A stretch of 33,411 bases of DNA from Dimorphilus gyrociliatus (GCA_904063045.1 CAJFCJ010000150.1:1-33411); one strand, 5' to 3'; numbered from the stretch's first letter, positions 2,831 to 26,950 are shown. Numbers and translations: made by a program. The notes: a model not told the origin generated them from the letters alone.

Positions 2831-3010
2831 TTATTGTTTTTGTTTTTACATCACAAATTAAATTTCCTGTTTTGTATTTAACTGAAAACTTTATTTAATA
2901 AAGGAATAACAATAGTACAAATTACACATAAAATTGATCACTTTTTATAACAATTAATTTCAACCAATTATGATTAATTAAAATTAAATAGAAAGAATTT
3001 TTTAGACCTA

Positions 3011-3283
3011 ATGGGAACATTTTCAGACAAAGATAATTTGAGAAGAGAAGGAACTTTAAAGTACTACGATTTTAAAAGAGGTTTTGGGTTTATAATACCA
3101 GGAGATAACGAAGTATCTACAGACATATTCTTTCACATTTCAGCTCTACAGAGAACTAAATATAAAATTCCTTTATTTCATTCTGGACAAAAAGTTACTT
3201 ATGACTTGTATGAAGGTAAAAAAGGCTTTTATGGAACTAATGTAAAACTGACTCATGAATTTGATAAAAGTGATTTAATCTAG
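3011..3283 (+). CDS. Stand-alone cold-shock domain protein (90 aa, intronless)
   Basis: RNP1 KRGFGFI and RNP2 DIFFHISAL, followed by GQKVTYDL..GKKG..NV. ATG to TAG is intact and AATAAA lies at 3318-3323. Confidence 0.88.
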   Translation: MGTFSDKDNLRREGTLKYYDFKRGFGFIIPGDNEVSTDIFFHISALQRTKYKIPLFHSGQKVTYDLYEGKKGFYGTNVKLTHEFDKSDLI

Positions 3284-3400: not shown

Positions 3401-4355
3401 TGTACTTTGTTGTATTGTAATTGTAGGAAGTCCTAGCTCGTCACTATCAAATTCGTCCACTCCAATCATTTACCAATGTGCCAAAGTACTGGTCCAAATA
3501 GAACCTTTCAAGTTCGTCCACAAGTAGTCTTAATAAATGTAATTCCAGTAAAAATTAACCAACAAACACCAGTATTTCATTCAAAGAATATGTATTTGAG
3601 TAAATGAGTTTCTAGTTCTAAAACAAGCAAGTTTGAACAACCAGCTGATGGTTAGAAAACTGAACTGACTACTGTTAAATTCGTAGGGTTTATATACTTT
3701 TCCAATAGTTCACAGTTCACGGATAAAAATATTCACACAAACAAATGTAACAATTTGGATAAAGGGAAAGTTCAAATATACTTCCATGTTTGTTACTTTT
3801 TCTTTATCTTGGAGAACTTTTGCTCCCTATTTTAGTAGGTCAGAAAGTTGCCTAAGATGTAACAATTATTAATAGAAGTTGGATTGATTCCAAAACACAA
3901 AAATAGGAAAAGGTCAACTTGATGCCGTTTTAATATACAACAAATTATTAATAATAATTGTTTGTGTAAGATAATATGTTTCTGTGTAAAGGACTGGTAG
4001 GATAAAAGTATTAAACTTAATCATTCAATATAGTATTGTGCATACAATACTGTTGAAAAGTGGACAATAATCTAAAAGCTCCAAATATAAATAGAATAGT
4101 GGAAGATATAATTAATATTCATTAAATATGATGTGTATAATAATTAGGGTTAACATCTAAGTTGTAAAATACTTTTACAACTTAGTTTAAATAGTGTATG
4201 TTGTAGTTTTAGGTGTGTAAAGTACTCTATAATACTCTTTCAATATTGCTTTCCATTGATGAATGAAATGTAACAATTTGGGTGTATTGTGTGAGTTTGT
4301 GAGCCTGGTTACGAGCTTATGTGTTTAGTACCTACAAACTGCCTAAATGTGTACA
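3401..4355 (-). repeat. LTR copy A (3' LTR of the inverted element), 955 bp
   Basis: Reverse complement of 12156-13108 with TGTAC...GTACA termini. It differs by two 1-bp insertions and at least two substitutions. Confidence 0.95.
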
Positions 4356-4359
4356 AACA

Positions 4360-4371
4360 TCCCACTCCTTT
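4360..4371 (-). other. Polypurine tract of the inverted copy
   Basis: Reverse complement is AAAGGAGTGGGA, identical to 12140-12151, just inside LTR A. Confidence 0.85.
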
Positions 4372-6036
4372 AAGACCTTGCTTCCACGAAAGGTCTTGGG
4401 CTTGAAACAATCAGTGTGTCACCATCCTTTTTGAATGTTGGATAAGTTTGTAGTGGTATTTCTTCTGGTTCAGCTGTTGGGGCTGTAGGTAACTTTTCTT
4501 TTCTAGCTAAAAGCTTAGCTAGCTTGGTGAAGTGTACTCTTTTCCAGTCTTTCTTCCAAAGAAACCAAATCAGAATCCCAATTCCAATGATTATTGTTAT
4601 TGGAAGAAGTATGTTGATGAGTGTTTTGTAAGGTGTCCTGGCCCATGATGAGAATATATGTTCAGTTTTAGACAAAGCAGCATCAATGCCCAAATCATTA
4701 GCAAAAGTTTATGTGCTCTTTATGTCTTGTTAAAGTGTCTTGAATGTATTCTAAAACTTGTTGAACTTGTTGTTGCTTCTTACCAACATCCTCTTTTATA
4801 CCAAGCTGTATTAACTCAGTAAGTCTAGCAACCTCTAATTTTGGTTCTTCAATTTCATTGCTTATTTTCATTCTGATTGATTGTGCTGCTGCAGTCTGAA
4901 ATCTGCATCCTTTCTTTGTGTAATAGATGAATGTTTTCTTTCCAGAATACATTGCTTGTTGATTGTGTTCAATGTCCAGTGGGTTTTTCTTAATTTTGAA
5001 CAGGTGTTGTGTTTGGTCACAATCTCCATATCTTATATCTTCTTTTGTTATGTGGTAAGCATGATGGAGTATTGGATCAAACTGAGAATAAGAGATCTTT
5101 ATACTTGATGAGAAATTCTTTGGAGCATAATCCATTTTTGGTGATAATTGTTGTATCACACACTACTTGAACTGATTTTAATTCTGTACAAGTATTTAAG
5201 GTTGTTAGATCACCAAGCCATGTACTGTGGCATTCCATGCTTAGATCCAAGTATTGTTGGTAGTTGAGGTGCCAATGGTGTGAGTAATGCTACCATCTTG
5301 TTTCTCATAATGAATTCTTTGCATAGAAGTTGTGATACTTGTTTGAAAACTGTTTGTAAATTTTGGAAATTTTTATCAATGTTATTTAATAAAGCAGATG
5401 TTCGAATAGCATCTGCTATGTCTATTTTGTGAAATTTTGGCATCTGTATGCTTTCTGATACTCTTCTCCTCCATTCATGCTTCTTTGGTGTTCTTTGCAA
5501 AAGTGTAAATTTTCCATTTGCTTGATGTGTTTGAAATTGTTTATCTTTTGGACTTTGGTACCAAGTGTCCAGTCTTGGTAAGGGATTGAAACTAATTTTC
5601 TTCTTGTTGAGTTCAAAATCTTCTGCTTTTGCCATTCTAGCAGGTTCCATTTTGGTTGTTTTCAACATTTTGAGTATGTATTTGTTGTTAATATCCCATA
5701 TATCAGGTGAGATTATTTCTCTGACCATCCAGGTCCTAACCAGTGGTGTTACATGATTTTTGATCAGCATATGATAAGTCTTGTCACCATCTCTATACCA
5801 ATCATTATAGGTTAGTATATTTTGTATTTCTGTATTATTTGCTTTTCTCAAAGTTGATATCTTTCCATCATAATTCTGCAATCTTGCAACTTCTTTGTTT
5901 GAAATGATTTTATATTTGATATCTGCCATCATTCTGTTATCAGCATAATTTGAATTTGTAAGATCAGTTCTTAATAAGTCGTATTCCTTCTGGGGTACTA
6001 AAATTCTTGTTCCAGGACCACCATATCCTTTGATAT
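4370..6036 (-). pseudogene. Inverted duplicate of the 3' part of the env-like region, split by three 1-bp insertions
   Basis: Reverse complement of 10478-12141. ORFs 5210-5932, 4698-5159 and 4370-4693 are consecutive pieces of the + strand protein. There is one G/D codon difference, and the copy ends at the N-gap. Confidence 0.93.
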
Positions 6037-6273
6037 NNNNNNNNNNNNNNNNNNNNNNNNNNNNNNNNNNNNNNNNNNNNNNNNNNNNNNNNNNNNNNNN
6101 NNNNNNNNNNNNNNNNNNNNNNNNNNNNNNNNNNNNNNNNNNNNNNNNNNNNNNNNNNNNNNNNNNNNNNNNNNNNNNNNNNNNNNNNNNNNNNNNNNNN
6201 NNNNNNNNNNNNNNNNNNNNNNNNNNNNNNNNNNNNNNNNNNNNNNNNNNNNNNNNNNNNNNNNNNNNNNNNN
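6037..6273. other. Assembly gap (237 N)
   Basis: Run of N between the two oppositely oriented element copies. Confidence 1.
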
Positions 6274-9200
6274 TCTGAAGTGTCAGATAGTGTGGATTCA
6301 GATATGGATATTACTGAGCCAGATACTGGATATGATACAAGTAATACTTATGCTCAAATGAAACTTTGAGTTCTTCTGAAAATTATGATACAGAGATGAG
6401 TAATGAACCAGAGCATAACTCAGACTCAGATTTGGATATTGTTAATGGTATAAAGTCATCTGAAAAAGAAAATGGCAACATAACAGATTCAGACAATGAC
6501 TCAGTTATTATCATTAACTCATCTGCTGAAGAAACTGAAACTGAATCTGAAGAATTAATTACAAAATGGAAATGAAAACACAATACATAGAATTAAAGGA
6601 TGGAATAACTATCAAAGTTGAAAAAGAACAAATGAAAACTCCAGCAACTCCTGAGATAGAAGAATTACTGCTGGAAAGTGTTGAGTTTGAACATATGTCT
6701 AATCAAAATATACACCACATTAATTCAACTACAGTAGAAATTGACAACTATTTACATGTGTCCAAAAATAATCCTGACAAAATCAGGGAAGAATTGAAAG
6801 AAATCATCAAGAATTATGAAGACATTATTGCTACAAATCAAAATGACATTGGCTCACCAGATGTTCCACCAATGGCAATTGAATTATTGGAAGATGTGAA
6901 ACCTTTTAAACAAAGACCATACAGATTACCACCCAACAAACAACAGGAATGTAGGGAACAACTTAATGGATTATTAGCAAATGGTTTGATTAGAGCAAGC
7001 AAAAGCCAATGGGCTTCACCAATTGTTTTTGTGAAAAAGAAAGAAGGAACATTAAGAATGTGTGTAGATTACAGAAAACTTAACAAGCATTCAAAAAAGA
7101 ATTGTTATCCAATCCCACACCAAGAAGATTTATTTGACAAACTTGGAGGAGGACATAAATACTTTTCCATCTTGGATTTGACAAGTGCATTTCACCACAT
7201 CCCTATCAAGGAAGAAGACAAAGAAAAAACTGCTTTCATAACACCATTTGGTCTATTTGAATTTAATCGAATGCCTTTTGGTTTAGCAAATGCACCCTCA
7301 CACTTCAGCTATATTATGGCAAATTTTGTCATAAATGGATTGGAAATTTCTGTATTAACTATATGGATGATATTATTGTTTTTACCAAAACATTGGAGGA
7401 ACACTACACAAGTCTACAGAAACTGATGGATAGAATCAAAGAAAAGGACTTCAGAATCAAGTTAAGCAAATGTGCATTTCTACAAGAATCAGTACAATTT
7501 CTTGGTCATAGAATTACACAGAATGGTATTGAAACTGATCCAGAAAAGATTCAAAAGATAAAAGATGCTGAATTACCAATGTTTGCAAATACTTTACTAA
7601 GTTTTGTAGCATTTTGTGGTTATTATAGAAGATTTATCAAGGACTTTGCAAAAATTACAAAACCATTGAGAGAATTATTAAAACTACATCAGAAGACTGA
7701 AAGACTAAAATGGACTACAGAAGCAGAGAAAGCGTATCAGACACTAAAGAAATCAATGACAGAACCACCAATACTTCAACTACCTGATTTTAGTAAACCA
7801 TTCTATCTAACAACAGATGCCTCCAATTATGCAGTTGGTGCAGTTTTAGAACAAGAATGGGAAGAAGATGGAAAGAAAATAAGAAAGCCAATTTCTTTTG
7901 CTTCAAAACTCCTAATCAATACACAACTAAGGTATGCAGCTTATCAAAAAGAAGCTTTTGCAGTCTATTGGGCAGTACAAAAATTCTCCCATTACTTGCA
8001 GTATAAGAAATTTTTTCTTTACACTGATCACCAAAATTTGGTACAAACATTTGTACAAAACAAATTAAATTCAAGTACTGTTAAATGGGTTATGGCACTT
8101 ATGGATATGGACTTTGAAATAATTTACATACCTGGAAGAACCAACAGAGCAGACTGGATATCCAGAATTGGAGAAACTGATGAAGTTATTGATTTCCGAA
8201 ATTTACTAAAGGAAAGACTAAATGAAGAAAAACAAAATGGCAATACAATTCCACAATTAGCAGAAAGAAAGGATATGCTTAAATGCTTTTATATTGATAC
8301 AGAAGATTTAGAAGACTTAGCTGATTGTTTGGATGACATTTTAGACAATAATGATGGTTATGATGAAGAAGCAGATGACAAAAAATTACAGGTCATGAAA
8401 TTAAAAAATAAACCTGTTGAGATAAACTTCTACACTGAACAAGTTTTGGATGACACGCTAATGAAAATTGTAGAAAAATTGGAAGGAGCAAATATTGATG
8501 TTGAAATGTTCAAGGAATACAAAAATTTTATTGAACATATGTTTGTCAAAGATGATTTAGTATGGTATCTGAATGGCTGTCAACCATTACTGGTAATTCC
8601 ACTACTGACTTTAACAAACCTACTGAACCAAATACATCAACATCAAATATTTGAACACTATGGTGTAGACATAACAATTCATACTTTGGAACAAGCTTTC
8701 TGGCATCCACAACTTAAGAAAACAATTAAAGACCATATAAAGAATTGCAAATTCTGTGAACAATTAAGAGCACCTGGAAACAAACATCTATTGGTTGAAA
8801 CACCCCATCCAACTCTACCAATGCAAAGAATTGCAATGGACATAATGGGACCACTAACAGGACATGAATCTTACAAATACATACTTGTCATTATAGATCA
8901 CATGTCAAGATTTACAAACCTATTTCCATTAAAAACTCAGACAGCTGAAGAAATATCAAAACACTTGTTTTTTAACTACTTTCCAATATTTGGTATTCCA
9001 GAAGAAATTCTCACAGACCAAGGACGGAATTTTCTGGGGGAAATATTTACAGAGATGGTTACATCAATGGGAATAAGGAAAATAAAAACAACAGCATTCC
9101 ATAGCCAAAGTAATGGAATGGTAGAAAGAAAGAATTTGGAAATTCGCAGAGCACTACATAAACATGTAGTTATGGAACAATTAACAGATTGGACAAGACA

Positions 9201-12141
9201 ATTACCAATAATTCAAACATGCTTAAACCAAATTCCAGTGGGAAGCACAGGCAAAACTCCACATGAAATATTATTTGGATTGAAGAATAGGAATGTCTTA
9301 GATTTGTTAATGGAAGTTCCAAGATTAGAACCAACAACAAAATTTCTATTTGATAGAAAGCATGAAATGGAAGAAATAAGAGCTACTGCATTGTGCAAAT
9401 CTGTCATGAAAAAGAAGGCATATAGAGATAGAGTAAACAAAACTATCACAAGAAAACCCCCAACTTACCAAATTGGTGAATGGGTACACATAAAAAATGA
9501 ACACATTGGTCAAGGAATGAATAGGATAAATACAAGCAAATGGAGTGGACCATACATTGTAACTGCTACTGATACTACAAAATGTCTTTATGAATTGGAA
9601 ATATTAAATGGCAAAAGAAAATTCTACCATGCTAGTAGACTAAGATTGGCTAACAAACAACCAACTAGAGTTAACACACTCAAGGTAGAGAAACAAGAAA
9701 GGAAAGTTGGAACACTTCCTATAAGAGGATCCATTGTTTACACTCTGCTAGCGCTATGCTTATTAAACTTGGTTCAGGGAAATGTATCAATAACAAAAGC
9801 AAACATAACTGTGAGAATGCTTCCTTCAGTACAATTCTGTCAAGGGCAACAAGTACATCAGTCATTTGATCTGGCTGATGAACCAATTTGCACATTCAAA
9901 ACTAAACAAATGACCAAAATAATGGCAAATATTTATGAAATTAAAGCTGATAATTTGGCAATACAAGCTGTTAAGTGTTTGGTAAAGAGAAGAATCAACT
10001 TTTACACTCATTACTTCTTTGGAGCAAAGAAACACAGAGTTGAAAAACAAACACTTACCTTAAGTGACAAACAATGCAGAAAAATGTTATTGTCAAAAAA
10101 GACCTTAAATGGACAAAAACTCATTGAAAAAGGAAACCTTCTAATGTACAATGAAAACAAAGGATCAAACTACAAATGGCCAAGAACAACAGTGGTTGAA
10201 GAATTTACAACAATTCTCCAAATTGGCAAAGCTTATTGGCACCCAAGTCAGGATAAGATAACAACCAACTTGGAATATTTAGAGGACTGTTCTATCAAAC
10301 ATAAATTTTGTAGAACTCTGGATTCCATTATTATTTTCAATCCTCAGAAAGGACAAAATCTCCTTGGTCATGAATCCCCATGGAAAGCAGTATCCTACAA
10401 TGTAGAGTGCATTAAGCTTGGAGGATATTTTTCATGTCCCAACTATGCAATAATGGATTTACCTTATCAAGATAGATATATCAAAGGATATGGTGGTCCT
10501 GGAACAAGAATTTTAGTACCCCAGAAGGAATACGACTTATTAAGAACTGATCTTACAAATTCAAATTATGCTGATAACAGAATGATGGCAGATATCAAAT
10601 ATAAAATCATTTCAAACAAAGAAGTTGCAAGATTGCAGAATTATGATGGAAAGATATCAACTTTGAGAAAAGCAAATAATACAGAAATACAAAATATACT
10701 AACCTATAATGATTGGTATAGAGGTGGTGACAAGACTTATCATATGCTGATCAAAAATCATGTAACACCACTGGTTAGGACCTGGATGGTCAGAGAAATA
10801 ATCTCACCTGATATATGGGATATTAACAACAAATACATACTCAAAATGTTGAAAACAACCAAAATGGAACCTGCTAGAATGGCAAAAGCAGAAGATTTTG
10901 AACTCAACAAGAAGAAAATTAGTTTCAATCCCTTACCAAGACTGGACACTTGGTACCAAAGTCCAAAAGATAAACAATTTCAAACACATCAAGCAAATGG
11001 AAAATTTACACTTTTGCAAAGAACACCAAAGAAGCATGAATGGAGGAGAAGAGTATCAGAAAGCATACAGATGCCAAAATTTCACAAAATAGACATAGCA
11101 GATGCTATTCGAACATCTGCTTTATTAAATAACATTGATAAAAATTTCCAAAATTTACAAACAGTTTTCAAACAAGTATCACAACTTCTATGCAAAGAAT
11201 TCATTATGAGAAACAAGATGGTAGCATTACTCACACCATTGGCACCTCAACTACCAACAATACTTGGATCTAAGCATGGAATGCACAGTACATGGCTTGG
11301 TGATCTAACAACCTTAAATACTTGTACAGAATTAAAATCAGTTCAAGTAGTGTGTGATACAACAATTATCACCAAAAATGGATTATGCTCCAAAGAATTT
11401 CTCATCAAGTATAAAGATCTCTTATTCTCAGTTGATCCAATACTCCATCATGCTTACCACATAACAAAAGAAGATATAAGATATGGAGATTGTGACCAAA
11501 CACAACACCTGTTCAAAATTAAGAAAAACCCACTGGACATTGAACACAATCAACAAGCAATGTATTCTGGAAAGAAAACATTCATCTATTACACAAAGAA
11601 AGGATGCAGATTTCAGACTGCAGCAGCACAATCAATCAGAATGAAAATAAGCAATGAAATTGAAGAACCAAAATTAGAGGTTGCTAGACTTACTGAGTTA
11701 ATACAGCTTGGTATAAAAGAGGATGTTGGTAAGAAGCAACAACAAGTTCAACAAGTTTTAGAATACATTCAAGACACTTTAACAAGACATAAAGAGCACA
11801 TAAACTTTGCTAATGATTTGGGCATTGATGCTGCTTTGTCTAAAACTGAACATATATTCTCATCATGGGCCAGGACACCTTACAAAACACTCATCAACAT
11901 ACTTCTTCCAATAACAATAATCATTGGAATTGGGATTCTGATTTGGTTTCTTTGGAAGAAAGACTGGAAAAGAGTACACTTCACCAAGCTAGCTAAGCTT
12001 TTAGCTAGAAAAGAAAAGTTACCTACAGCCCCAACAGCTGAACCAGAAGAAATACCACTACAAACTTATCCAACATTCAAAAAGGATGGTGACACACTGA
12101 TTGTTTCAAGCCCAAGACCTTTCGTGGAAGCAAGGTCTTAA
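6274..12141 (+). CDS. Pol-Env polyprotein, 5'-partial, ~1,950 aa if three single-A losses are corrected
   Basis: The 1592-aa ORF 7363-12141 runs without a stop from the YMDD motif through RNase H, integrase and env. The upstream pieces (6274-6363, 6366-6575, 6566-7426) each join by a -1 shift at A-runs 6361-6363, 6563-6566 and 7344-7346. Confidence 0.85.
6872..7640 (+). other. Reverse transcriptase domain
   Basis: Motifs KQRPYRLP, SQWASPIVFVKKK, RMCVDYRKLN, LDLTSAFHHI, TAFITPFGLFEFNRMPFGLANAP, YMDD (7360-7371), KLSKCAF and FLGHRI. Confidence 0.97.
7801..8166 (+). other. RNase H domain
   Basis: Motifs FYLTTDASNYAVGAVL, ISFASK, YAAYQKEAFAVYWAV, LYTDHQNL and YIPGRTNRADWISR. Confidence 0.95.
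8635..9651 (+). other. Integrase (HHCC zinc finger, D,D35E core, GPY/F tail; no chromodomain)
   Basis: HQHQIFEH...CKFC, then IAMDIMGP, then TDQG followed by 35 residues to the E of SNGMVE, then YQIGEWV...WSGPYIV. Confidence 0.96.
9727..12141 (+). other. Env-like type I membrane glycoprotein, predicted class III fusion protein (gB/G/gp64 fold)
   Basis: Hydrophobic signal-like segment GSIVYTLLALCLLNLVQG (9727-9780) and N-glycosylation sequons NVS and NIT. Cys-rich ectodomain with fusion-loop-like HYFFG (10015-10023 for FFG) and YKWP (10171-10182). gB-like core LLC...STWLGDLTTLNTC...GLCSKEFLIKYK...YGDC. TM helix at 11899-11955; cytoplasmic tail with YPTF. Confidence 0.8.
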
Positions 12142-12151
12142 AGGAGTGGGA
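12140..12151 (+). other. Polypurine tract overlapping the env stop codon
   Basis: TAA(12139-12141)AGGAGTGGGA, then TGTT, then the LTR start. Confidence 0.85.
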
Positions 12152-12325
12152 TGTTTGTACACATTTAGGCAGTTTGTAGGTACTAAACACATAAGCTCGT
12201 AACCAGGCTCACAAACTCACACAATACACCCAAATTGTTACATTTCATTCATCAATGGAAAGCAATATTGAAAGAGTATTATAGAGTACTTTACACACCT
12301 AAAACTACAACATACACTATTTAAA

Positions 12326-12354
12326 CTAAGTTGTAAAAGTATTTTACAACTTAG
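12326..12354. other. Perfect 13-bp-stem hairpin in LTR U3
   Basis: CTAAGTTGTAAAA-GTA-TTTTACAACTTAG, present in all four LTR copies (one mismatch in copy C). Confidence 0.9.
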
Positions 12355-12813
12355 ATGTTAACCCTAATTATTATACACATCATATTTAATGAATATTAAT
12401 TATATGTTCCACTATTCTATTTATATTTGGAGCTTTTAGATTATTGTCACTTTTCAACAGTATTGTATGCACAATACTATATTGAATGATTAAGTTTAAT
12501 ACTTTTATCCTACCAGTCCTTTACACAGAAACATATTATCTTACACAAACAATTATTATTAATAATTTGTTGTATATTAAAACGGCATCAAGTTGACCTT
12601 TTCCTATTTTTGTGTTTTGGAATCAATCCAACTTCTATTAATAATTGTTACATCTTAGGCAACTTTCTGACCTACTAAAATAGGGAGCAAAAGTTCTCCA
12701 AGATAAAGAAAAAGTAACAAACATGGAAGTATATTTGAACTTTCCCTTTATCCAAATTGTTACATTTGTTTGTGTGAATATTTTTATCCGTGAACTGTGA
12801 ACTATTGGAAAAG

Positions 12814-12847
12814 TATATAAACCCTACGAATTTAACAGTAGTCAGTT
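12814..12847 (+). promoter_or_regulatory. LTR core promoter: TATA box plus TCAGT initiator
   Basis: TATATAAA at 12814-12821 and TCAGTT at 12842-12847, with the Inr A exactly 30 nt after the TATA start. This implies a U3/R boundary near 12844. Confidence 0.7.
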
Positions 12848-13109
12848 CAGTTTTCTAACCATCAGCTGGTTGTTCAAACTTGCTTGTTTAGAACTAGAAA
12901 CTCATTTACTCAAATACATATTCTTTGAATGAAATACTGGTGTTTGTTGGTTAATTTTTACTGGAATTACATTTATTAAGACTACTTGTGGACGAACTTG
13001 AAAGGTTCTATTTGGACCAGTACTTTGGCACATTGGTAAATGATTGGAGAGGACGAATTTGATAGTGACGAGCTAGGACTTCCTACAATTACAATACAAC
13101 AAAGTACAG

Positions 13110-17400: not shown

Positions 17401-18309
17401 TGTACTTTGTTGTATTGTAATTGTAGGAAGTCCTAGCTCGTTGCTATCAAATTCGTCCTCTCCAATCATTTACCAATGTGCCAAAGTACTGGTCCAAATA
17501 GAACCTTTCAAGTTCGTCCACAAGTAGTCTTAATAAATATAATTCCAGTAAAAATTAACCAACAAACACCAGTATTTCATTCAAAGAATATGTATTTGAG
17601 TAAATGAGTTTCTAGTTCTAAACAAGCAAGTTTGAAGAACCAGCTGATGGTTAGAAAACTGAACTGACTACTGTTAAATTCTAAGGGTTTATATACTTTT
17701 CCAATAGTTCACAGTTCACAGATAGAAATATTGACACAAACAAATGTAACAATTTGGATAAAGGGAAAGTTCAAATATACTTCCATGTTTGTTACTTTTT
17801 CTTTATCTTGGAGAACTTTTGCTCCCTATTTTAGTAGGTCAGAAAGTTGCCTAAGATGTAACAATTATTAATAGAAGTTGGATTGATTCCAAAACACAAA
17901 AATAGGAAAAGGTCAACTTGATGCCGTTTTAATATACAACAAATTATTAATAATAATTGTTTGTGTAAGATAATATGTTTCTGTGTAAAGGACTGTAGGA
18001 TAAAAGTATTAACTTAATNNNNNNNNNNAAAGCTCCAAATATAAATAGAATAGTGGAAGATATAATTAATATTCATTAAATATGATGTGTATAATAATTT
18101 GGGTTAACATCTAAGTTGTAAAATACTTTTACAACTTGGTTTAAATAGTGTATGTTGTAGTTTTAGGTGTGTAGAGTACTCTATAATACTCTTTCAATAT
18201 TGCTTTCCATTGATGAATGAAATGTAACAATTTGGGTGTATTGTGTGAATTTGTGAGCCTGGTTACGAGCTTATGTGTTTAGTACCTACAAACTGCCTAA
18301 ATGTGTACA
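17401..18309 (-). repeat. Solo-like LTR copy C (contains a 10-N gap)
   Basis: Both TGTAC/GTACA termini are present with no internal element sequence on either side. It carries about a dozen differences from copies A, B and D. Confidence 0.92.
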
Positions 18310-18876
18310 GTCATCAAGTGAAATATTTGACAGTATGATTTTGGATTGATTAGGAGGAGTAAAGTTGCTATTAATTTGTAGTTAGGGGGAGGGGCGGATT
18401 GACTATTAATTATAGACTAATGTAGTTTATCAGTTATTATGTCAACAAAGGGGGAAATAAAATGTTGTCCTCATACAATCATCTTATTTACACTGCTATA
18501 GTATTATAAATTTTTATTGTTACTTGAATGATGACATTATGTTTAGCTTTGAAATTCAATTACAAGCACAATATCAAGATTCAGATGTGGATTGCCAATA
18601 TGGTGTCATTTATCTTTCTCTCTCAAATAAGATAAATCCTACAATAATTTACTCAAACCGAGTGCAAAAAATTTATAATATTCTATTCCACAAATAGTAT
18701 GGTAGACAGTTAATGTTATTGATAAAATAATTGATTAATTGACAAGACTATAGGTAATTTAAATGAAATGAAAAGAAGAGCAAATATTCACTAGAAAAGT
18801 AATCAACATATCAATTTTTAGAGAGAAAAAATGTATATAAGAAGATTGAGAGAAAGAGAAAGAAAATGTAAAAAAA

Positions 18877-20220
18877 ATGTGGTGGAATTTCCAACTGCAA
18901 TATTTACTTTTCTCAATAAATTTAATCATTCAAATAATCTCAACTGACACTACTCTAAATAATACTAATCCTGTTAACATTGCTCTAAATCAAGCTACTT
19001 TCCATTCCAGTGTAAAAAATAGTTTATATAATAGTAGTACTGCTGTTGATGGAATATTTAATATACACGAATGTTTTACAACACTGAAGACGTCATCAGT
19101 TTTTGAATGGTGGATGGTAATATTCAAAAAATATTATTTTGTTAGAACCATTAGAATGTTTTATTATACTTTTGGTATGAATGATACTGTTAGTTTATTT
19201 ACGAGCATCTCTGATATTGATCATCCCCAAAATCGTAATAAATTGACACTTTGCAATAAAGTTGATAAAAATTTTTTTGATAAGAAATCTGCAACAATAA
19301 ACTGTTTAAACGGTCCTCAATATTCTAAATCAGTTGTTGCTGAGGTTCTGTCCAAGATATCCCAATTATCCATATGTGAAATTGAAATTTGGACAATGAG
19401 AGATGTTGATAGAGATATTGATAATATTTATGGCTTAGGTTTAAATTTGCTGAAAGGGAATGATGGTATAGGTATATCGTATTATTTGGATCCTTTTTGT
19501 ACTTGGTCCGGTTACGTAAATCCTAGTTGGTGGATGATTAATTTGAATAGTTCTTGCGAAATTTATGCTATATCTTTGATAAATAGAGTGAACACTTTGG
19601 ATCGTTTGGGTTATTTACAAATACTTATAACAAATCTTAAAAATGTAATTCCTCCTTTGCTGCCGGAAATAGTTTGCGGTACAATAGATTATGGAACGCC
19701 TTATATGACAAGAAGGTGCCCAAAGTCTACAATTGGTAGATCAGTTACTCTATACAAAAATTTCACTACATCAATAAATGTACGAGATGGTCTGACACTT
19801 TGTGAAATTGAAATATTTGCTTCATCAATTCAAGATACTATTCATGTCAGTTGGATTGTAAACAACTCAAATTCCATTATTCAACAATACAAAACAGATT
19901 CCTGTAATCCTAAAATTACAGATGTAATTAGAATAATTCAATATAGAACTCAACAAGTAACAATAGAATTAAGAGGTGTGTCACTTTTAAAATCTTGTTC
20001 TAATGGAGCATTTAAATTCCTTTCATCTACTAATGAAAATGTTGAAGAATGTACAATGATAAATTCTTTTGATGGCTATTACACAGAGCTTGATATGCTA
20101 GACTCGTGCAATTTTCAATGTAATTGTTTAAATGATTATTGTTTAGCAATTCATTTTCTAACAATTCAATCTAATTTACTTTCTCTGAATAGAGATTTTT
20201 ATGTAACTGTCAATGTTTAA
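18877..20220 (+). CDS. Secreted protein with two tandem F-type lectin/F5-8C-like domains and a Cys-rich C-terminal domain (447 aa, intronless)
   Basis: N-terminal hydrophobic signal. Domain 1: NIALNQATFHSS...AVDG...EWWMV...LSICEIEIW. Domain 2: SWWMINL...INRVN...CG...IGRSV...LTLCEIEIF. C-terminal CNFQCNC..C. Confidence 0.88.
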   Translation: MWWNFQLQYLLFSINLIIQIISTDTTLNNTNPVNIALNQATFHSSVKNSLYNSSTAVDGIFNIHECFTTLKTSSVFEWWMVIFKKYYFVRTIRMFYYTFGMNDTVSLFTSISDIDHPQNRNKLTLCNKVDKNFFDKKSATINCLNGPQYSKSVVAEVLSKISQLSICEIEIWTMRDVDRDIDNIYGLGLNLLKGNDGIGISYYLDPFCTWSGYVNPSWWMINLNSSCEIYAISLINRVNTLDRLGYLQILITNLKNVIPPLLPEIVCGTIDYGTPYMTRRCPKSTIGRSVTLYKNFTTSINVRDGLTLCEIEIFASSIQDTIHVSWIVNNSNSIIQQYKTDSCNPKITDVIRIIQYRTQQVTIELRGVSLLKSCSNGAFKFLSSTNENVEECTMINSFDGYYTELDMLDSCNFQCNCLNDYCLAIHFLTIQSNLLSLNRDFYVTVNV

Positions 20221-20658
20221 ATTCCTTAACTCAAATTTTCAAATATTTCAATGTTGTAAAAAATGTTAAAAAAGGAAGAAGAAGAGGAAAAGAGAGAGAC
20301 AAAAAAATTTTCTACTATTGATGCTAAATGTTCTATCAAGCTTAATATGATATTTGTATTATAAATTATTTATATATAAATGAATAATTTATCTTATTCA
20401 TCAATAATTTCAATTGTCTTTCCAAATACAAATAAAGAATTTTGGAAATATTATAATGTCACAATAATAAAATATAATTTATAATTAACGACATTTCTAA
20501 AAGATTTCTTATGATATATTGATTGGTTTTTTTTTACCAGTTTATATCTAAAATGTAAAAAATTGTTTGTTTGAGTAGAACTAATACTGATGTAATCTGC
20601 AAAAGGATAATTTGATCATAAAAGAGCAGTACTGCAATTGTGTCAAAATAATTAATAA

Positions 20659-22652
20659 TTAACTTTTTTTTTCTTTAACATTAATTTTGCTACCCAATAA
20701 TCTGACATAGTAATTGACAGTTTCAAAGTCTATATTTGCAGTTGCTTCATCAATCACAATCAAATATGATTGTTTTAATAGAGCTCTCATTAAACTTATT
20801 AATTGCCTCTCTCCAATACTAAAATTCTTTCCGCCTTCCATTACACTTAAATTCAATTGGTGCTTTAAATTTTGAACTTTCCCTGATAATTGCACTTTGT
20901 GAAGATTCAGCCAAATTTCATCATCTGTATACATGTTAAACTGATCTAAATTTGACCTGATTGTTCCAGTGAACAATGCTGGAACTTGAGGGATGACTGA
21001 TATGGCTAATCTTCCTCTTTGGAGACTGCAATCTTTAAGAATATCAACGCCATCTAGTAGAATTTTTCCTTCAACATAGCCTATTTGTAAGAGGGTTGAT
21101 AAAAGGGAACTTTTGCCAGCAGCAGTTCGTCCAACAATTCCAATCTAAAGTATATTGTTTAAATATATAATGAAATTATAAGAAATTAAGAAACCTCTCC
21201 TGATTGAATGCATAAATTGATAGAAGACAATGTGTTAAAGGTAAATCTTTATTATATTTCATAGAAACATTAATTAGTTCCAACTTTCCACTACAAGGCC
21301 AATTTTCATTTTCACATTGTATGCATTCAAAATATAGAAATAATGCAATTTTTTGTTGCAAGCTTCATAAAATTTATCCATTAATTGATTTTCTTTTTGA
21401 AAGCATCTTATTGTTACAAGACCAGTTAGAGTTGTGACCAACATTTCATAAATTGGGCTAGCAGCTATACTATCCAATCTTGTTTGGTAAATTTTCTAAA
21501 TCCTTTTAAACAAATAAAAAATATGATAAAAAAATATTCATAGACAGCCATATTGTTTGTTTCTTTCTGTTACCTTTTCAAGTGAACCCACTTGTAAAAT
21601 TTTTCTATGTTTAACCAAGTTGAAGTCATCATCAAAAATTATATTATCCATAATTGAACCTGTAAAAATCCAAGGATCTTGAGGCATATATGATTTTTTC
21701 ATTGCCATATCTATAAATCCATTCTTTGGCCTTAACTCTTCAAGCATATTGAATAGTAATGTAGTTTTTCCTGAACCAACTTTCCCATATATTCCAATTA
21801 GAGATGCTGATTCCACAGACAAATTGACATTTTTGAAAATGAACTTTGAAGGTGTAGCCTAAAATAATTTAATATAATATTTATATGAAAAAATTTACAG
21901 ATATTCTGTTTACCTTCCAACTGTAATCAACATTTTGCAGTTTACATATTCCCAAGGTTTTATTATCTTTATTACTACTCAGAGTGACAATTTCATTTCT
22001 TTCACATTTTGTCCTATTCTTTGAGCATAATAATTTCTAAAAAAAAAATTGTAATCCAACTGAAACTTTTAACATTTATATGGCCTTGACCTTGATCGTA
22101 ATACTAACCTCAACTAACATTTTAATAGTTTCAATTCCAGATAAAATTTCATTCATAAATTGTATTCTTTTGTCATTTCTAATTGAAATTTGTGATCTGA
22201 GTAAACCTTGCTTATATGCCATATATGATTGAAATGAGGCAATGAAAGCAATTGTTGTAAAACAAGTAAATCCTGATAGAAAACCAAGAAGAATTCCAAT
22301 AGCAATTGATGTTACTATTACTAAAGAAAACTAATTTTTAATTTTTTGAAAAAAAGACAGAAATTATCTGATACAAACAACCACCAAACGCATTAATACT
22401 AGGAAAGGAAGCATTCCCTTCAGTCGATATATGGTTATCTTGAATAGGGAGATATTTCGTCCTAGTTTTAAATCTTTAAACATTTCCCTAAATAATATAT
22501 AAAAATGTTTTATAATCTCTTATGATACTTTCTACAAAAGAACTTACAATTTGTTTTTAGCATGCAATTTTCTTGTATCAAGACTCTGTAATTTTTCATA
22601 TTTATCTAATCTTTCAATCCAATTTTTACCTTTTATCATAAAGTAAACCCAT
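20659..22652 (-). pseudogene. ABCC (MRP4-like) transporter remnant with multiple internal deletions, frameshift and missing first exon
   Basis: Lasso-like exon (WVYFMIKG...), TMD1 piece DKRIQFMNEILSGIETIK, NBD1 GKVGSGKT..QDPWIF, TMD2 piece RLDSIAASPIY..TLTGLVTIR, NWPCSGKL and NBD2 GRTAAGKS..NFSIGERQL..IDEATANID. Only about half of a full ABCC is present. Confidence 0.88.
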
Positions 22653-22719: not shown

Positions 22720-25700
22720 GTCATAGAATTACACAGAATGGTATTGAAACTGATCCTGAAAAGATTCAGATAATAAAAGATGCCAAATTACCTATGTTTG
22801 CCATTATTCTGTTGAGTTTTGTGGCATTTTGTGGTTATTATAGAAGATAAGCTACTAATCAATACACAATTAAGATATGCAGCTTATCAAAAAGAGGATT
22901 TGCAGTATATTGGGCAGTACAAAAATTCTCCCATTATCTACAGTATAAGAAATTTTTTCTCTACACTGATCACCAAAATTTGGTACCAACACTTGTACGA
23001 AACAAACTGAATTCAAGTACTGTTAAATGGGTGATGGCACTTATGGATATGGATTTTGAAATAATATACATACCAGGAAGAGCTAATAGAGCAGACTGGA
23101 TATCAAGAATTGATGAAACTGATGAAGTAATTGATTTTCGAAATTTACTTAAGGAAAGATTAAATGAAGAAAAACAAAATGGCAATACAGTTCCCCAATT
23201 AGCAGAAAGAAAGGATATGCAAAAATGCTTCTATATTGATACAGAAGACTTAGAAGAATTAGATGATTGTTTGGATGACAATTTAGATGATGATTATCAT
23301 GAAGACATACTTGAAACCCAAGCCCAGATTATGAAACATAAAATCACACCAGTTGAAATAAACTTCTATAGAGAACAATTATTAGATACCCCACTAATGA
23401 AAGTTGTAGACAAATTGGAAGGAGAAAACATTGATAATGGGTCATTGAATGAATATAAAAACTTTATTGAATCTATGTTTGTAAAAGAAGACCTTGTATG
23501 GTATCTAAATGGCTGTCAACCACTACTTGTAATCCCAGTAGAAACTCTAACCAACTTATTTGGACAAATTCATCAACATCAACTATTTGAGCACTATGGT
23601 GTAGACATAACAATTCACACTTTGGAGCAAGCTTTCTGGCATCCCAAGCTAAAGAAAACAATTAAAGGTCATATAAAGAGTTGTGAATTTTGTGAGCAAT
23701 TTAAGAGCACCAGGCAACAAACACTTGTTGGTTGAAACACCTCACCCAACTCTACCAATGCAAATAATTGTTATGGACATAATGGGACCTTTGACTGGAC
23801 ATGATTCTTACAAGTATATACTAGTCATTATAGACCACATGTCCAGATTTACCAACTTATTCCCTCTAAAAACTCAAGCAGCTGAGGAAATTTCTAAACA
23901 TTTGTTTTTCAACTATTTCCCAATATTTGGTATCCCAGAAGAAATTTTCGCAGATCAAGGAAGGAATTTTCTTGGGGAAATCTTTACAGAAATGGTAATA
24001 TCAATGGGAATACGAAAAATTAAAACAACACCATTCAATAGCCAAAGTAATGGAATGGTAGAAAGAAAAAATTTGGAAATTCGCAAAGCACTACATAAAC
24101 ATGTAGTAATGGAACAATTGACAGATTGGCAAGGCAATTGCCAATAATTCAGACATGTTTAAATCAAATTCCAGTTGGAAGCACTGGCAAAACCCCACAT
24201 GAAATATTATTTGGATTGAAGAATAGAAATGTCTTAGATCTATTAATGGAAGTTCCAATATTAGAACCAACAACAAAATTCTTATTTGATAGAAAACATG
24301 AACTTGAAGAAATTAGAGCAACAGCACTTTGTAAATCTGTTCTAACAAAGAAGAAATATAGAGATAGAGTTAATAAAGCTATTACAAGAAAACCACCAAC
24401 TTACAAAATTGGTGATTGGGTACACATAAGAAATGAAAACATTGGTCAAGGAATGAACAGAATAAATACAAGCAAATGGAGTGGACCATACCTTGTAACT
24501 GCTACTGATACTACAAAATGTTTGTATGAATTACAAATATTGGCAGATAAAAGAAAATTCTATCATGATAGTAGACTAAGACTAGCTAACAAACAACCTA
24601 TAACAGTTAACACAGTGACAGTAAGGAACCAACAAACAAATGGTGGAATACTTCCTATCAGAGTGTACAACTTTGGTTATATTTTACATGCTTGAACTCT
24701 ATTATTTTATGCAACTTATACATGTACATCTTAAAACCTACGCAAGAAAATGCTATAATATTGGCCAAACATAAGTCTGAAACATAATATAACTAAAGAC
24801 CCCTACCATAAATTCCCACTGGAAATGAGAGAAGCTGCCCAAACAGCTACCTTACTACATGGTATTGATTCAAATTTTAAGAATTTAAAAAAATTTACCC
24901 AACAGCTGTCAAGTCTTCTCTGCTTTTCCAAGTGGAACCAGTTACTCATGTGTTACAGCAAGTCAATTTGGAAGAGATTACCTATAATGAGTGTAGGTCT
25001 AACCAGTTATTCTACAAAACAACTCACAATCAATTAAATCCTATAAGAAACCAACTGATGAAAGACAAAACATATGTGTATTATTCAGAAAGAGGATGCA
25101 GATTTCACACTGTGTCTGCAAAATCCATTCAGTTAAATATCCACAATCACCTTTCTGAACCAAAAATTGAAATTGCCTGATTAGCTGACCTACTCCACCA
25201 TGGGGTAAAGAAGGATATTAGAACTGATCTTACAAATTCCAGTTATGCTGACAATAAAATAACAGAGGATACAAACTACAAGATCATTTCAAATAAAGAA
25301 GCTAATAGTATGGAGAAATATATTGGAAAGAAAACATCACTAAGAAAGGCCAATGTCACAGAAATACAAGATATTTTAACATATAATGATTGGTATAGAG
25401 ATGGTGACAAAACCTAGCATATGCTGTTAAGAAATCATGCAACACCATTAGTGAGGACTTGGTTTGTCAAAGAAATTATTTCTCCAGACATCTGGGATAT
25501 TAACAACAAATACAAATATACACTTTTACAAAGAAAACCAATAAATCACAAATGAAAGAGGAAACAATTAAAAAGCATAGAAATTCCAGAATCACACTGT
25601 ACTTTGTTGTATTGTAATTGTAGGAAGTCCTAGCTCGTCACTATCAAATTCGTCCACTCCAATCATTTACCAATGTGCCAAAGTACTGGTCCAAATAGAA

Positions 25701-26950
25701 CCTTTCAAGTTCGTCCACAAGTAGTCTTAATAAATGTAATTCCAGTAAAAATTAACCAACAAACACCAGTATTTCATTCAAAGAATATGTATTTGAGTAA
25801 ATGAGTTTCTAGTTCTAAACAAGCAAGTTTGAACAACCAGCTGATGGTTAGAAAACTGAACTGACTACTGTTAAATTCGTAGGGTTTATATACTTTTCCA
25901 ATAGTTCACAGTTCACGGATAAAAATATTCACACAAACAAATGTAACAATTTGGATAAAGGGAAAGTTCAAATATACTTCCATGTTTGTTACTTTTTCTT
26001 TATCTTGGAGAACTTTTGCTCCCTATTTTAGTAGGTCAGAAAGTTGCCTAAGATGTAACAATTATTAATAGAAGTTGGATTGATTCCAAAACACAAAAAT
26101 AGGAAAAGGTCAACTTGATGCCGTTTTAATATACAACAAATTATTAATAATAATTGTTTGTGTAAGATAATATGTTTCTGTGTAAAGGACTGGTAGGATA
26201 AAAGTATTAAACTTAATCATCCAATATAGTATTGTGCATACAATACTGTTGAAAAGTGACAATAATCTAAAAGCTCCAAATATAAATAGAATAGTGGAAG
26301 ATATAATTAATATTCATTAAATATGATGTGTATAATAATTAGGGTTAACATCTAAGTTGTAAAATACTTTTACAACTTAGTTTAAATAGTGTATGGAGAG
26401 CTCTGGATGGAGAGCCTACTGTGGAGGAAATATGGAAAGCCCTCCATGACGAATTTGATCTGGATCCTTTGGAGTATCCTTGTCACCAACACAACATCTA
26501 TTTTCTTCATGGATAAGAAAACCTTTCAAAATACTAATAGACACACTTCTTCCAATTATACTCTTGATTGGAATTGGATTCTTCATTTACTTTATTTGGA
26601 AGAAAAAACTGAAAAGAGTTCAATTTACCAGACTGTCTAAACTATTGACAAAAACAAAAAGATTACCTTCAGCTCCAACAGCTGAATCAGAAGAAATAGA
26701 ACTGCAAAATTATCCTATGTTCAGAAAAAATGGTGATAACATAATTGTCACAAGTCCTAGACCTTTTGTGGAAGCAATAAAACCTATTAAATTATATAAA
26801 GAATATTGCTATTTGCAACCTAGCATTAATATTACAATTTATTAATCCATACATTTAGGATTTTCAACTAAAACTAGTTAAATTAATTATCAATTATGCT
26901 AAAATTCTAAGTTTAGATTATATTCACTATCCAACAGTATTGTGTATACA
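22720..26950 (+). mobile_element. Older diverged sister-subfamily copy of the Pol-Env element: deleted, frameshifted, env blocks reordered
   Basis: RT thumb from 22720, a ~270-bp RNase H deletion near 22848, integrase core about 93% identical by manual count, env fragments at 24800-25597 and 26400-26777, and a 31/38 match to the LTR at 26913-26950 (vs 12436-12473). Confidence 0.9.
25598..26395 (-). repeat. LTR copy D, nested antisense in the old copy's env and truncated on the U3 side
   Basis: Matches the reverse complement of 12311-13108; the first 155 bp of the LTR are absent. Confidence 0.93.

What the first reader, a model, noticed from the sequence alone, without database searches (positions are those of the whole stretch)
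7363..12141. Gypsy element with a class III (gB-type) envelope fused in frame to Pol through an internal signal peptide
Seen in sequence: one stop-free frame runs from RT (YMDD) through RNase H and integrase into LPIRG and an 18-aa hydrophobic signal-like segment. It then continues into a Cys-rich glycosylated ectodomain, a single TM helix and a tail with a YxxPhi motif (YPTF). Established knowledge: insect errantivirus env is usually a separate, spliced ORF related to baculovirus F (class I). Class III fusogens (herpes gB, VSV G, gp64) have two aromatic fusion loops and a long central helix followed by a GDxxxxxxC beta-domain. Here HYFFG and YKWP occupy the loop positions of the rhabdovirus-G layout, and STWLGDLTTLNTC...GLCSKEFLIKYK...YGDC parallels HSV gB ARMLGDVMAVSTC...GACYSRPLVSFR...IEPC. 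Inference: this is a potentially infectious retrovirus-like element that makes its envelope as a Pol-Env polyprotein released by signal peptidase, as flavi- and alphavirus polyproteins do. That forces about 1:1 Pol:Env synthesis unless a spliced env mRNA exists. gB-type env genes are known in some invertebrate LTR elements, so the novelty is mainly the fusion and the lineage.
Basis: partly seen in the sequence, partly recalled or inferred. Interest (0 to 1): 0.88.

Follow-up and report, generated by a model that had tools for sequence, protein, structure and literature searches.

The report
Worm retroelement with fused herpes-type envelope
A young virus-like jumping gene, likely of a tiny marine worm, encodes its copying enzymes and a predicted herpesvirus-type membrane-fusion protein in one unbroken reading frame that is likely cut apart at an internal signal peptide; it is real, but it probably belongs to an element family already named in print.

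Summary
Observation confirmed. One stop-free frame (7267-12141) runs from the RT YMDD through RNase H and integrase into a signal-like segment, an ectodomain, one TM helix and a YxxPhi tail. Contigs of 4 of 4 runs bridge the junction without a difference, and a ~85%-identical sister subfamily crosses it without a gap. Class III fold is supported: the top 11 VIA-align rows are gB/G/GP64-type, HSV gB Z 9.1. Corrections: this copy is frame-broken in RT, gag/protease/5' LTR lie beyond an N gap, and 'Cys-rich, glycosylated' is overstated. Novelty is low: the host is likely the annelid Dimorphilus, whose gypsy family Dingle, with a gB-like env downstream of integrase, is published (PMC7854359). Three gB-type errantiviruses carry POL-ENV labels in PMC13524379's supplement, and P0139 is a complete Gag-Pol-signal-class III Env frame. 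I found no text discussing the fusion or its processing. The scan noted related gag-env-pol and Copia Pol-env fusions on other DNA. Processing, splicing and infectivity are untested.

The parts
6551..7426 (+). N-terminal half of RT, in a different frame from the main ORF; preceded by an acidic stretch without a protease motif
   Evidence: Pfam RVT_1 E 4.8e-18; 74% identical over 261 aa to DgyrCDS14407; no protease motif found in 6274-7000
7267..12141 (+). Pol-Env open frame, 1624 codons
7360..7371 (+). RT catalytic motif YMDD
7711..8106 (+). RNase H
   Evidence: Pfam RT_RNaseH and RT_RNaseH_2, E 4e-31
8617..9078 (+). Integrase zinc finger and core
   Evidence: Pfam Integrase_H2C2 E 3e-10, rve E 1e-9
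9715..9780 (+). Predicted internal signal peptide (basic lead-in, hydrophobic core, small residues at -3/-1 of the predicted cut after 9780); no Met between 9517 and 9817
   Evidence: hydropathy and Met list; same position as the N-terminal hydrophobic leaders of P0123, P0125, P0130; 6 synonymous, 2 non-synonymous, 0 stop codon differences among those listed. SignalP not available
9781..11892 (+). Class III (gB/G-type) ectodomain, 704 aa
9910..10527 (+). Fusion domain plus PH-like domain (env residues 44-249), the confident part of the model
   Evidence: pLDDT mostly 70-90; VIA-align Z 9.1, rmsd 7.0, 207 aligned to HSV-1 gB 2gum
10009..10023 (+). Predicted fusion loop 1 (HYFFG)
   Evidence: F79-F80 at the tip between strands 60-78 and 81-92; YFFG invariant in alignment A3
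10171..10182 (+). Predicted fusion loop 2 (YKWP)
   Evidence: in the loop between strands 120-128 and 136-154; W invariant in A3
10543..11070 (+). About 175-residue insertion shared with P0122 and largely absent from the more distant homologues; residues 343-417 fold confidently
   Evidence: no Pfam match up to E 2
11095..11340 (+). Central helix and GD..C motif (gB domain III into IV)
   Evidence: profile A1 matches EBV gB 442-514, E 0.018; homologues hit Pfam Glycoprotein_B below its cut-off; low model confidence here
11893..11955 (+). Single transmembrane helix
11956..12138 (+). 61-residue cytoplasmic tail with YxxPhi (12067-12078)
   Evidence: a YxxF also stands in the decayed sister copy and in P0129
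12140..12151 (+). Polypurine tract
   Evidence: sequence
12156..13108 (+). 3' LTR, 953 nt, TGTAC...GTACA ends
   Evidence: ends defined by the other LTR copies and their flanks and by contig ends
3401..6036 (-). Second, inverted copy of the 3' part of env and the LTR, running into the N gap, with its own flank
   Evidence: 3 substitutions and 5 gap columns in 2631 nt; frame-broken in env as assembled; different 3' flank
22720..26777 (+). Decayed and rearranged sister copy (about 86% identical in pol), interrupted by an LTR of the young family
25598..26395 (-). LTR piece of the young family inside the decayed copy
   Evidence: 3 substitutions in 798 nt
17401..18309 (-). LTR copy with an internal 10-N gap, no target-site duplication seen

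Best explanation
This is a Ty3/gypsy LTR element, likely of the annelid Dingle family, whose RT-RNase H-integrase region and a predicted class III fusion protein lie in one reading frame, so its genome-length RNA would yield a Pol-Env polyprotein that is likely split at an internal signal peptide. Shown: the single frame, its presence in independent contigs and in a diverged subfamily, young copies, and the class III fold of the N-terminal half of Env. Inferred steps: (1) the ribosome finishes Pol in the cytosol; (2) the hydrophobic segment after integrase targets it to the ER and signal peptidase cuts after nucleotide 9780, so that Env becomes a type I membrane protein with one C-terminal anchor; (3) integrase keeps the signal remnant and stays membrane-tethered until the element's protease or a host intramembrane protease trims it; (4) Env trimerises like gB/G, is sorted by the YxxPhi tail and fuses particles with other cells, plausibly carrying the element from soma to germ line as Drosophila errantiviruses do. 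Every ribosome that completes Pol also makes one Env; the ratio to Gag cannot be read because gag lies beyond the gap.
For: Frame and motifs. Junction bridged with 0 differences in 4 of 4 runs, 3 studies: X1 9417-9936, X2 9526-10503, X3 9526-9937, X6 9616-9937; X5 9613-9844 with 1 difference. Sister subfamily: X4 contig 9526-10200, 103 other letters, 0 gaps; two more diverged X3 contigs keep the same length across the junction. The 40 differences shown (of 258) fall in 33 codons: 25 synonymous, 8 non-synonymous, 0 stop; in the signal segment 6, 2, 0. The decayed copy in the window keeps the pol frame, with a diverged linker of equal length, through LPIR. No Met between 9517 and 9817, so Env has no start codon of its own before the signal. 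Class III: homologue P0125 passes the Pfam cut-off for Rhabdo_glycop_FD, E 2e-5; 6 of 7 PDB hits of the profile are gammaherpesvirus gB; all 36 Foldseek rows shown are gB (35) or VSV G (1), best E 2.4e-7; top 11 of 50 VIA rows are class III, first unrelated row Z 4.8. The same design (basic stretch, hydrophobic segment, Env, TM) follows Pol in P0139 and P0030.
Against: No processing, RNA or protein evidence. The signal peptide is judged by hydropathy and homologue position only. The window's Env has no significant Pfam or PDB sequence hit by itself. The model has mean pLDDT 50.5, pTM 0.34, with 418-705 under 50, and TM-scores of only 0.14-0.19, so the C-terminal half rests on a weak profile match (E 0.018). 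One search used 40 of 258 differences, pooled over contigs, with none listed between 9648 and 9741. Some contigs carry indels in the integrase C-terminus or in env (table 4), and the decayed copy has stops after LPIR. The laid runs may include the sample behind the window. Drosophila errantiviruses make Env from spliced RNA, and an AG after a short pyrimidine run lies at the LPIR codons in both the element and the decayed copy. Identity with Dingle was not tested by sequence.
Confidence: 0.7

Rival explanations
1. Most Env comes from a spliced subgenomic RNA that joins a 5' leader with a start codon to an acceptor just before the signal segment, as in Drosophila errantiviruses; the open junction is merely tolerated. 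This can coexist with the polyprotein.
For: Spliced env is the rule in Drosophila iERVs (passage). No Met before the signal. An AG after 7 of 12 pyrimidines at 9725 and at the matching site of the decayed copy.
Against: The candidate acceptor is weak and its -3 letter differs between copies at a synonymous site. The linker keeps length and frame in diverged copies, which splicing alone would not require. No joint into this site among those listed, but none of the runs is on record as RNA and the donor would lie beyond the gap.
Confidence: 0.22
2. The fusion is an assembly error or a private loss of a stop codon in this one copy.
For: The window does show indel-type disagreements with contigs elsewhere in the element and between its two near-identical copies.
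Against: 4 of 4 runs bridge the junction with 0 differences; the sister subfamily crosses it without a gap.
Confidence: 0.03
3. Env is made and membrane-bound but no longer fuses membranes or spreads particles between cells; the element copies itself inside cells and the domain is kept for another role, such as anchoring assembly at membranes.
For: No functional data; a 175-residue insertion of unknown role; no R-x-K/R-R site found; entry mechanism of gB-type errantiviruses is stated to be unknown.
Against: Fusion-loop aromatics and cysteines are invariant across homologues at 27-38% identity; 5 of 5 listed env codon differences are synonymous.
Confidence: 0.1

Closest known systems
Dingle (Dinophilidae Gypsy-like elements), Martin-Duran et al., PMC7854359
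   Same: Ty3/gypsy LTR element of Dimorphilus gyrociliatus with a protein downstream of integrase that resembles CMV and HSV-1 gB by HHpred. The closest named relatives of the window's Pol and Env are D. gyrociliatus proteins.
   Different: The passages and supplement hits I saw do not state that env is in frame with pol or mention an internal signal peptide; Extended Data Fig. 3d (six-frame map) may show it, and I saw only its legend. No Dingle sequence was available for comparison.
HSV/gB-type 'ancient errantiviruses' (Chary and Hayashi, eLife 2026, PMC13524379), in particular Hymenoptera Llat_2, Rotifera Bcal_1 and Tardigrada Pmet_4
   Same: Gypsy Pol plus gB-type Env with signal peptide, fusion loops and TM. 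These three ENV_HSV elements are labelled POL-ENV or GAG-POL-ENV in Supplementary file 4, which I read as single frames (my inference; no definition seen).
   Different: Main text has 0 hits for 'fused', 'polyprotein', 'single orf', 'splic'. The one Dimorphilus entry, Dgyr_errantivirus_1, differs from this element: LTR about 630 nt against 953, a chromodomain, the label GAG-POL, and by its coordinates about 1.7 kb between env and LTR against 14 nt.
P0050/P0139 (unnamed gypsy Gag-PR-RT-RH-IN-chromo-signal-class III Env-TM, one frame)
   Same: Same junction design and env class: Rhabdo_glycop_FD above cut-off after a hydrophobic segment.
   Different: Only 36% identical in RT-RNase H, carries a chromodomain, and its Env has no significant pairwise match to the window's (profile E 4e-7 and 2e-4 in a set of about 139 proteins).
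Atlas virus and other nematode belpaoviruses (PMC9094657)
   Same: Single Gag-Pol-Env polyprotein of 2828 residues with a captured viral fusogen behind integrase.
   Different: Belpaoviridae, not gypsy; class II phlebovirus-like GN-GC.
Drosophila errantiviruses (gypsy, ZAM, Idefix)
   Same: Ty3/gypsy Pol with env at the 3' end before the LTR.
   Different: F-type env from a spliced subgenomic RNA, with a furin site.

Membership tests
Ty3/gypsy LTR retrotransposon (Metaviridae) | Pol order RT-RNase H-integrase with gypsy-type domains | tested here: met
   all 120 listed relatives carry RVT_1 or RNase H with integrase families
Ty3/gypsy LTR retrotransposon (Metaviridae) | LTRs with TG...CA ends and a polypurine tract | tested here: met
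   3' LTR 12156-13108 and PPT 12140-12151; only the 3' LTR of this copy is in the window
Ty3/gypsy LTR retrotransposon (Metaviridae) | gag, protease, 5' LTR and primer-binding site | not testable with these tools
   beyond the N gap 6037-6273; no whole genome held
Class III viral fusogen (gB, G, GP64) | Elongated beta fusion domain with two hydrophobic loops, inserted in a PH-like domain | tested here: met
   homologues hit Rhabdo_glycop_FD
Class III viral fusogen (gB, G, GP64) | Long central helix followed by the gB domain IV beta region | tested here: inconclusive
   helices 439-484 predicted at pLDDT under 50; profile match to EBV gB E 0.018; Pfam Glycoprotein_B below cut-off in P0130 and P0122
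Class III viral fusogen (gB, G, GP64) | Trimer and membrane-fusion activity | not tested
   no trimer model run; activity needs the bench
HSV/gB-type errantivirus (operational term of PMC13524379) | Gypsy Pol plus gB-type env with signal peptide and TM | tested here: met
   signal peptide by hydropathy only
HSV/gB-type errantivirus (operational term of PMC13524379) | Intact gag, pol and env; several near-identical copies | tested here: inconclusive
   this copy is broken in RT as assembled and lacks gag in the window; a second copy is 99.7% identical over 2.6 kb
Dingle (PMC7854359) | Host Dimorphilus gyrociliatus or Dinophilidae | tested here: inconclusive
   best Pol hit and one env hit are D. 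gyrociliatus proteins; host genes of the window were not compared
Dingle (PMC7854359) | gB-like env downstream of integrase | tested here: met
   against passages
Dingle (PMC7854359) | Placement in the Dingle clade of the pol tree; identity with Dingle-1 | not testable with these tools
   no Dingle sequence or figure available
Dgyr_errantivirus_1 (PMC13524379) | About 630-nt LTR, chromodomain after integrase, its listed primer-binding site | tested here: not met
   LTR 953 nt; no Chromo match in the frame; the PBS was not found, but the 5' end is absent, so that item is uninformative
Drosophila-type (F-type, spliced env) errantivirus | Baculovirus F-like env with furin site in a separate frame | tested here: not met
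   no Baculo_F match, no R-x-K/R-R, class III fold, same frame as pol

The most novel reading that the evidence does not exclude
This family makes its class III envelope only as the tail of Pol, with no spliced env RNA, and the leftover signal anchor holds Pol at the membrane where Env collects, coupling enzyme packaging to envelope acquisition; the same junction design has arisen repeatedly in unrelated gypsy lineages (this element, P0139, P0030) as an undescribed, flavivirus-like expression strategy of infectious retrotransposons.
Probability: 0.25. Interest if true: 0.6.

Novelty: already known. Interest (0 to 1): 0.3.

Why it matters
The element kind and probably the family are in print, so discovery value is modest. 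What remains useful: how gB-type errantiviruses express and use a lone gB-like fusogen is stated to be unknown, and this young family in a small-genome annelid offers a defined junction at which polyprotein processing against splicing can be tested. The conservation of the frame and of the signal segment between subfamilies is evidence, not found in the texts I searched, that the Pol-Env fusion is under selection.

Tried and rejected
No whole genome is held, so copies could not be counted. Single-sequence AlphaFold model unusable, pLDDT 31.8. Env alone: no significant Pfam or PDB sequence hit. Search for longer, fused relatives of Env: 0 of 4295 candidates, weak evidence; profile search returned only P0122 and P0123 of 7422 candidates. 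No related loci in viral contigs or metagenome contigs; three alignment queries had no usable conserved stretch. ESM Atlas: not answered for the window's Env, P0125 or P0122; P0126 gave only rows under the bar. No RNA holder listed, so splicing and expression were not tested. RT-RNase H tree of 56 of 121 eligible sequences left the element on a long, unresolved branch; P0002 was not in it. Depth ratios of contigs were not used as copy numbers. I first read the decayed copy's sequence after LPIR as a ruined signal peptide in frame; tblastn shows that copy rearranged there, so I dropped this. The insertion at env 255-430 could not be folded alone (no jobs left), so its fold is untested. No complex prediction was run. 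Literature searches without a text on gypsy Pol-Env fusion processing. The scan's own notes had nothing by sequence or place.


Full report
Observation. The + strand holds a 1624-codon frame from 7267 to 12141. Pfam places the C-terminal part of RT, RNase H, the integrase zinc finger and the integrase core in its first 604 residues. After the integrase C-terminal region come a basic linker, a hydrophobic segment (9715-9780), a 704-residue region with 14 Cys and 3 sequons, a TM helix (11893-11955) and a 61-residue tail with YPTF. A polypurine tract and a 953-nt LTR follow. The N-terminal half of RT is in another frame (6551-7426), so the copy is broken in RT as assembled; contigs of X1, X2 and X3 do not match the window at that break, which suggests an assembly error. 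Gag, protease and the 5' LTR are not in the window: an N gap lies at 6037-6273, and beyond it stands an inverted second copy of 10478-13108 with 3 substitutions and 5 gap columns in 2631 nt and a different flank.

Is the fusion real? Nine runs were listed, none on record as RNA; six were laid. In 4 of 4 runs, from 3 studies, a contig bridges the integrase-signal-Env junction with 0 differences. In one search, X5 does so with 1 difference, and X4 holds a sister subfamily across 9526-10200 with 103 other letters and 0 gaps; two more diverged X3 contigs keep the same length across the junction. The 40 differences shown, of 258, fall in 33 codons: 25 synonymous, 8 non-synonymous, none a stop; within the signal segment 6, 2 and 0. 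These are pooled over contigs, and none is listed between 9648 and 9741. The decayed copy at 22720-26777 keeps the pol frame through a diverged linker of equal length up to LPIR and is rearranged and stop-ridden after it. Some contigs carry indels in the integrase C-terminus or in env, as expected of decayed copies. The best holders may include the sample behind the window. I conclude that the fusion is a property of the family.

What is the envelope? By itself it has no significant Pfam or PDB sequence hit. A scan of 1.84 billion representatives gave 10 relatives. P0125 passes the cut-off of Rhabdo_glycop_FD (E 2e-5); P0130 and P0122 hit Glycoprotein_B below its cut-off. A profile of 11 sequences matches gammaherpesvirus gB in 6 of 7 PDB rows, over the central helix and the GD..C motif, E 0.018 at best. 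AlphaFold on a 10-sequence alignment gave mean pLDDT 50.5, confident in 44-249 and 343-417, poor in 418-705. F79-F80 and Y131-P134 lie at strand tips, where the loops are themselves of low confidence. Foldseek's 36 PDB rows shown are 35 gB and 1 VSV G, with low TM-scores; the viral library's named rows are mostly glycoproteins of chu-, rhabdo-, nyami- and herpesviruses. VIA-align against 48,161 chains ranks 11 class III proteins first (HSV-1 gB Z 9.1, rmsd 7.0, 207 aligned), the first unrelated row at Z 4.8 (second look). The class III call is firm for the fusion and PH-like domains and weaker for the C-terminal half.

How it likely works. There is no Met between 9517 and 9817, so Env has no start of its own ahead of the signal. 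Any ribosome that completes Pol on genome-length RNA runs into the hydrophobic segment, which occupies the place of the N-terminal leaders of stand-alone homologues. By established knowledge of ER targeting (recalled, as in flavivirus and alphavirus polyproteins), it would be inserted and cut by signal peptidase, leaving Env as a type I protein and integrase with a membrane-bound remnant until trimmed. These steps are inferred (confidence 0.7). The main rival is an additional or dominant spliced env RNA, the rule in Drosophila errantiviruses (bioRxiv 10.1101/2023.08.03.551782, passages); a weak acceptor candidate lies at the LPIR codons, and no RNA was available.

Comparison with what is known. 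The closest Pol relative is DgyrCDS14407 of Dimorphilus gyrociliatus (74% over 261 residues), and one Env relative is DgyrCDS14603; the next Pol relatives are at about 40-42% in RT-RNase H and the tree is unresolved. The host is therefore likely this annelid or a close relative. PMC7854359 and its preprint (passages, figure legend and supplement hits; the figure itself not seen) name Dingle, the most abundant transposon class of that worm, a gypsy element whose protein downstream of integrase resembles CMV and HSV-1 gB. The window's element is probably a Dingle copy; this was not tested by sequence. PMC13524379 (abstract, passages, sections 14, 15, 22 whole, first parts of 5, 6, 9, and parts of or searches in its supplements; figures not seen) catalogues 1512 env-bearing gypsy elements and calls the F and gB types equally abundant. 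Its one Dimorphilus entry is a different family by LTR length, chromodomain and spacing. Four names in its Supplementary file 4 carry POL-ENV or GAG-POL-ENV, three of them with ENV_HSV; I read these as single frames, although the main text has no hit for fused, polyprotein or splicing. Directly, among the 120 listed of 226 Pol relatives, two run from integrase through a signal-like segment into Env: P0030 (F-type) and P0050 (class III), whose cluster member P0139 is complete to the TM. Atlas virus is a single Gag-Pol-Env polyprotein with a class II Env in a belpaovirus (PMC9094657, passages). Mosquito Anakin elements carry chuvirus gB-like glycoproteins (PMC7642597, passages). The scan's earlier notes describe gB-type Env fused between Gag and Pol, and an F-type Env fused to a Copia Pol, in other genomes (unchecked), and nothing on this sequence.

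Verdict. What my searches did not find in print is a treatment of the fusion's processing or evidence of selection on it; unseen figures and non-open papers may hold it. Novelty: already known. Interest 0.3; the most novel reading, an obligate polyprotein route with a membrane-tethered Pol, has probability 0.25 and would merit 0.6.

Noticed in passing
window 6274-6880 (+): About 200 acidic, low-complexity codons lie directly before RT with no aspartic-protease motif in any frame as it stands; protease is either further upstream or absent. DgyrCDS14407 has a similar stretch.
   Followed up: partly
window 10543-11070 (+): A 175-residue insertion in Env, of which residues 343-417 fold confidently, has no Pfam match and was not covered by the fold searches; a possible receptor-binding add-on. 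PMC13524379 notes 'extra domain' for two other gB-type Envs.
   Followed up: partly
window 3401-6036 (-) and 6037-6273: Two 99.7%-identical copies point away from each other across an N gap, each with its own 3' flank: either two insertions or a scaffold joined through the repeat.
   Followed up: partly
window 22720-26777 (+): Decayed copy whose env pieces are out of order and of different divergence (39-70% identity), with a young LTR inserted.
   Followed up: partly
window 10774-11082 and 13108: In run X6 a deep contig covers only 10774-11082, and a joint links the LTR end to 10692: possibly an internally deleted derivative.
   Followed up: no
window 12326-12354: A 29-nt near-perfect palindrome within the LTR, present in all four LTR copies.
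   Followed up: no
P0030: Unnamed 2150-aa single frame Gag-PR-RT-RH-IN-signal-Baculo_F-TM: an F-type errantivirus with the same fusion design.
   Followed up: partly
P0050, P0139: Unnamed chromodomain-bearing gypsy element with class III Env in one frame behind a basic stretch and a signal-like segment.
   Followed up: partly
window 2978-3283 (+): Short intronless cold-shock-domain ORF beside the inverted copy's LTR (Pfam CSD E 7e-13).
   Followed up: no
window 18850-21858 and 28897-32822: Host genes: an ORF with a weak F5/8-type match, ABC-transporter exons, and an LRR protein with receptor-like hydrophobic segments.
   Followed up: no
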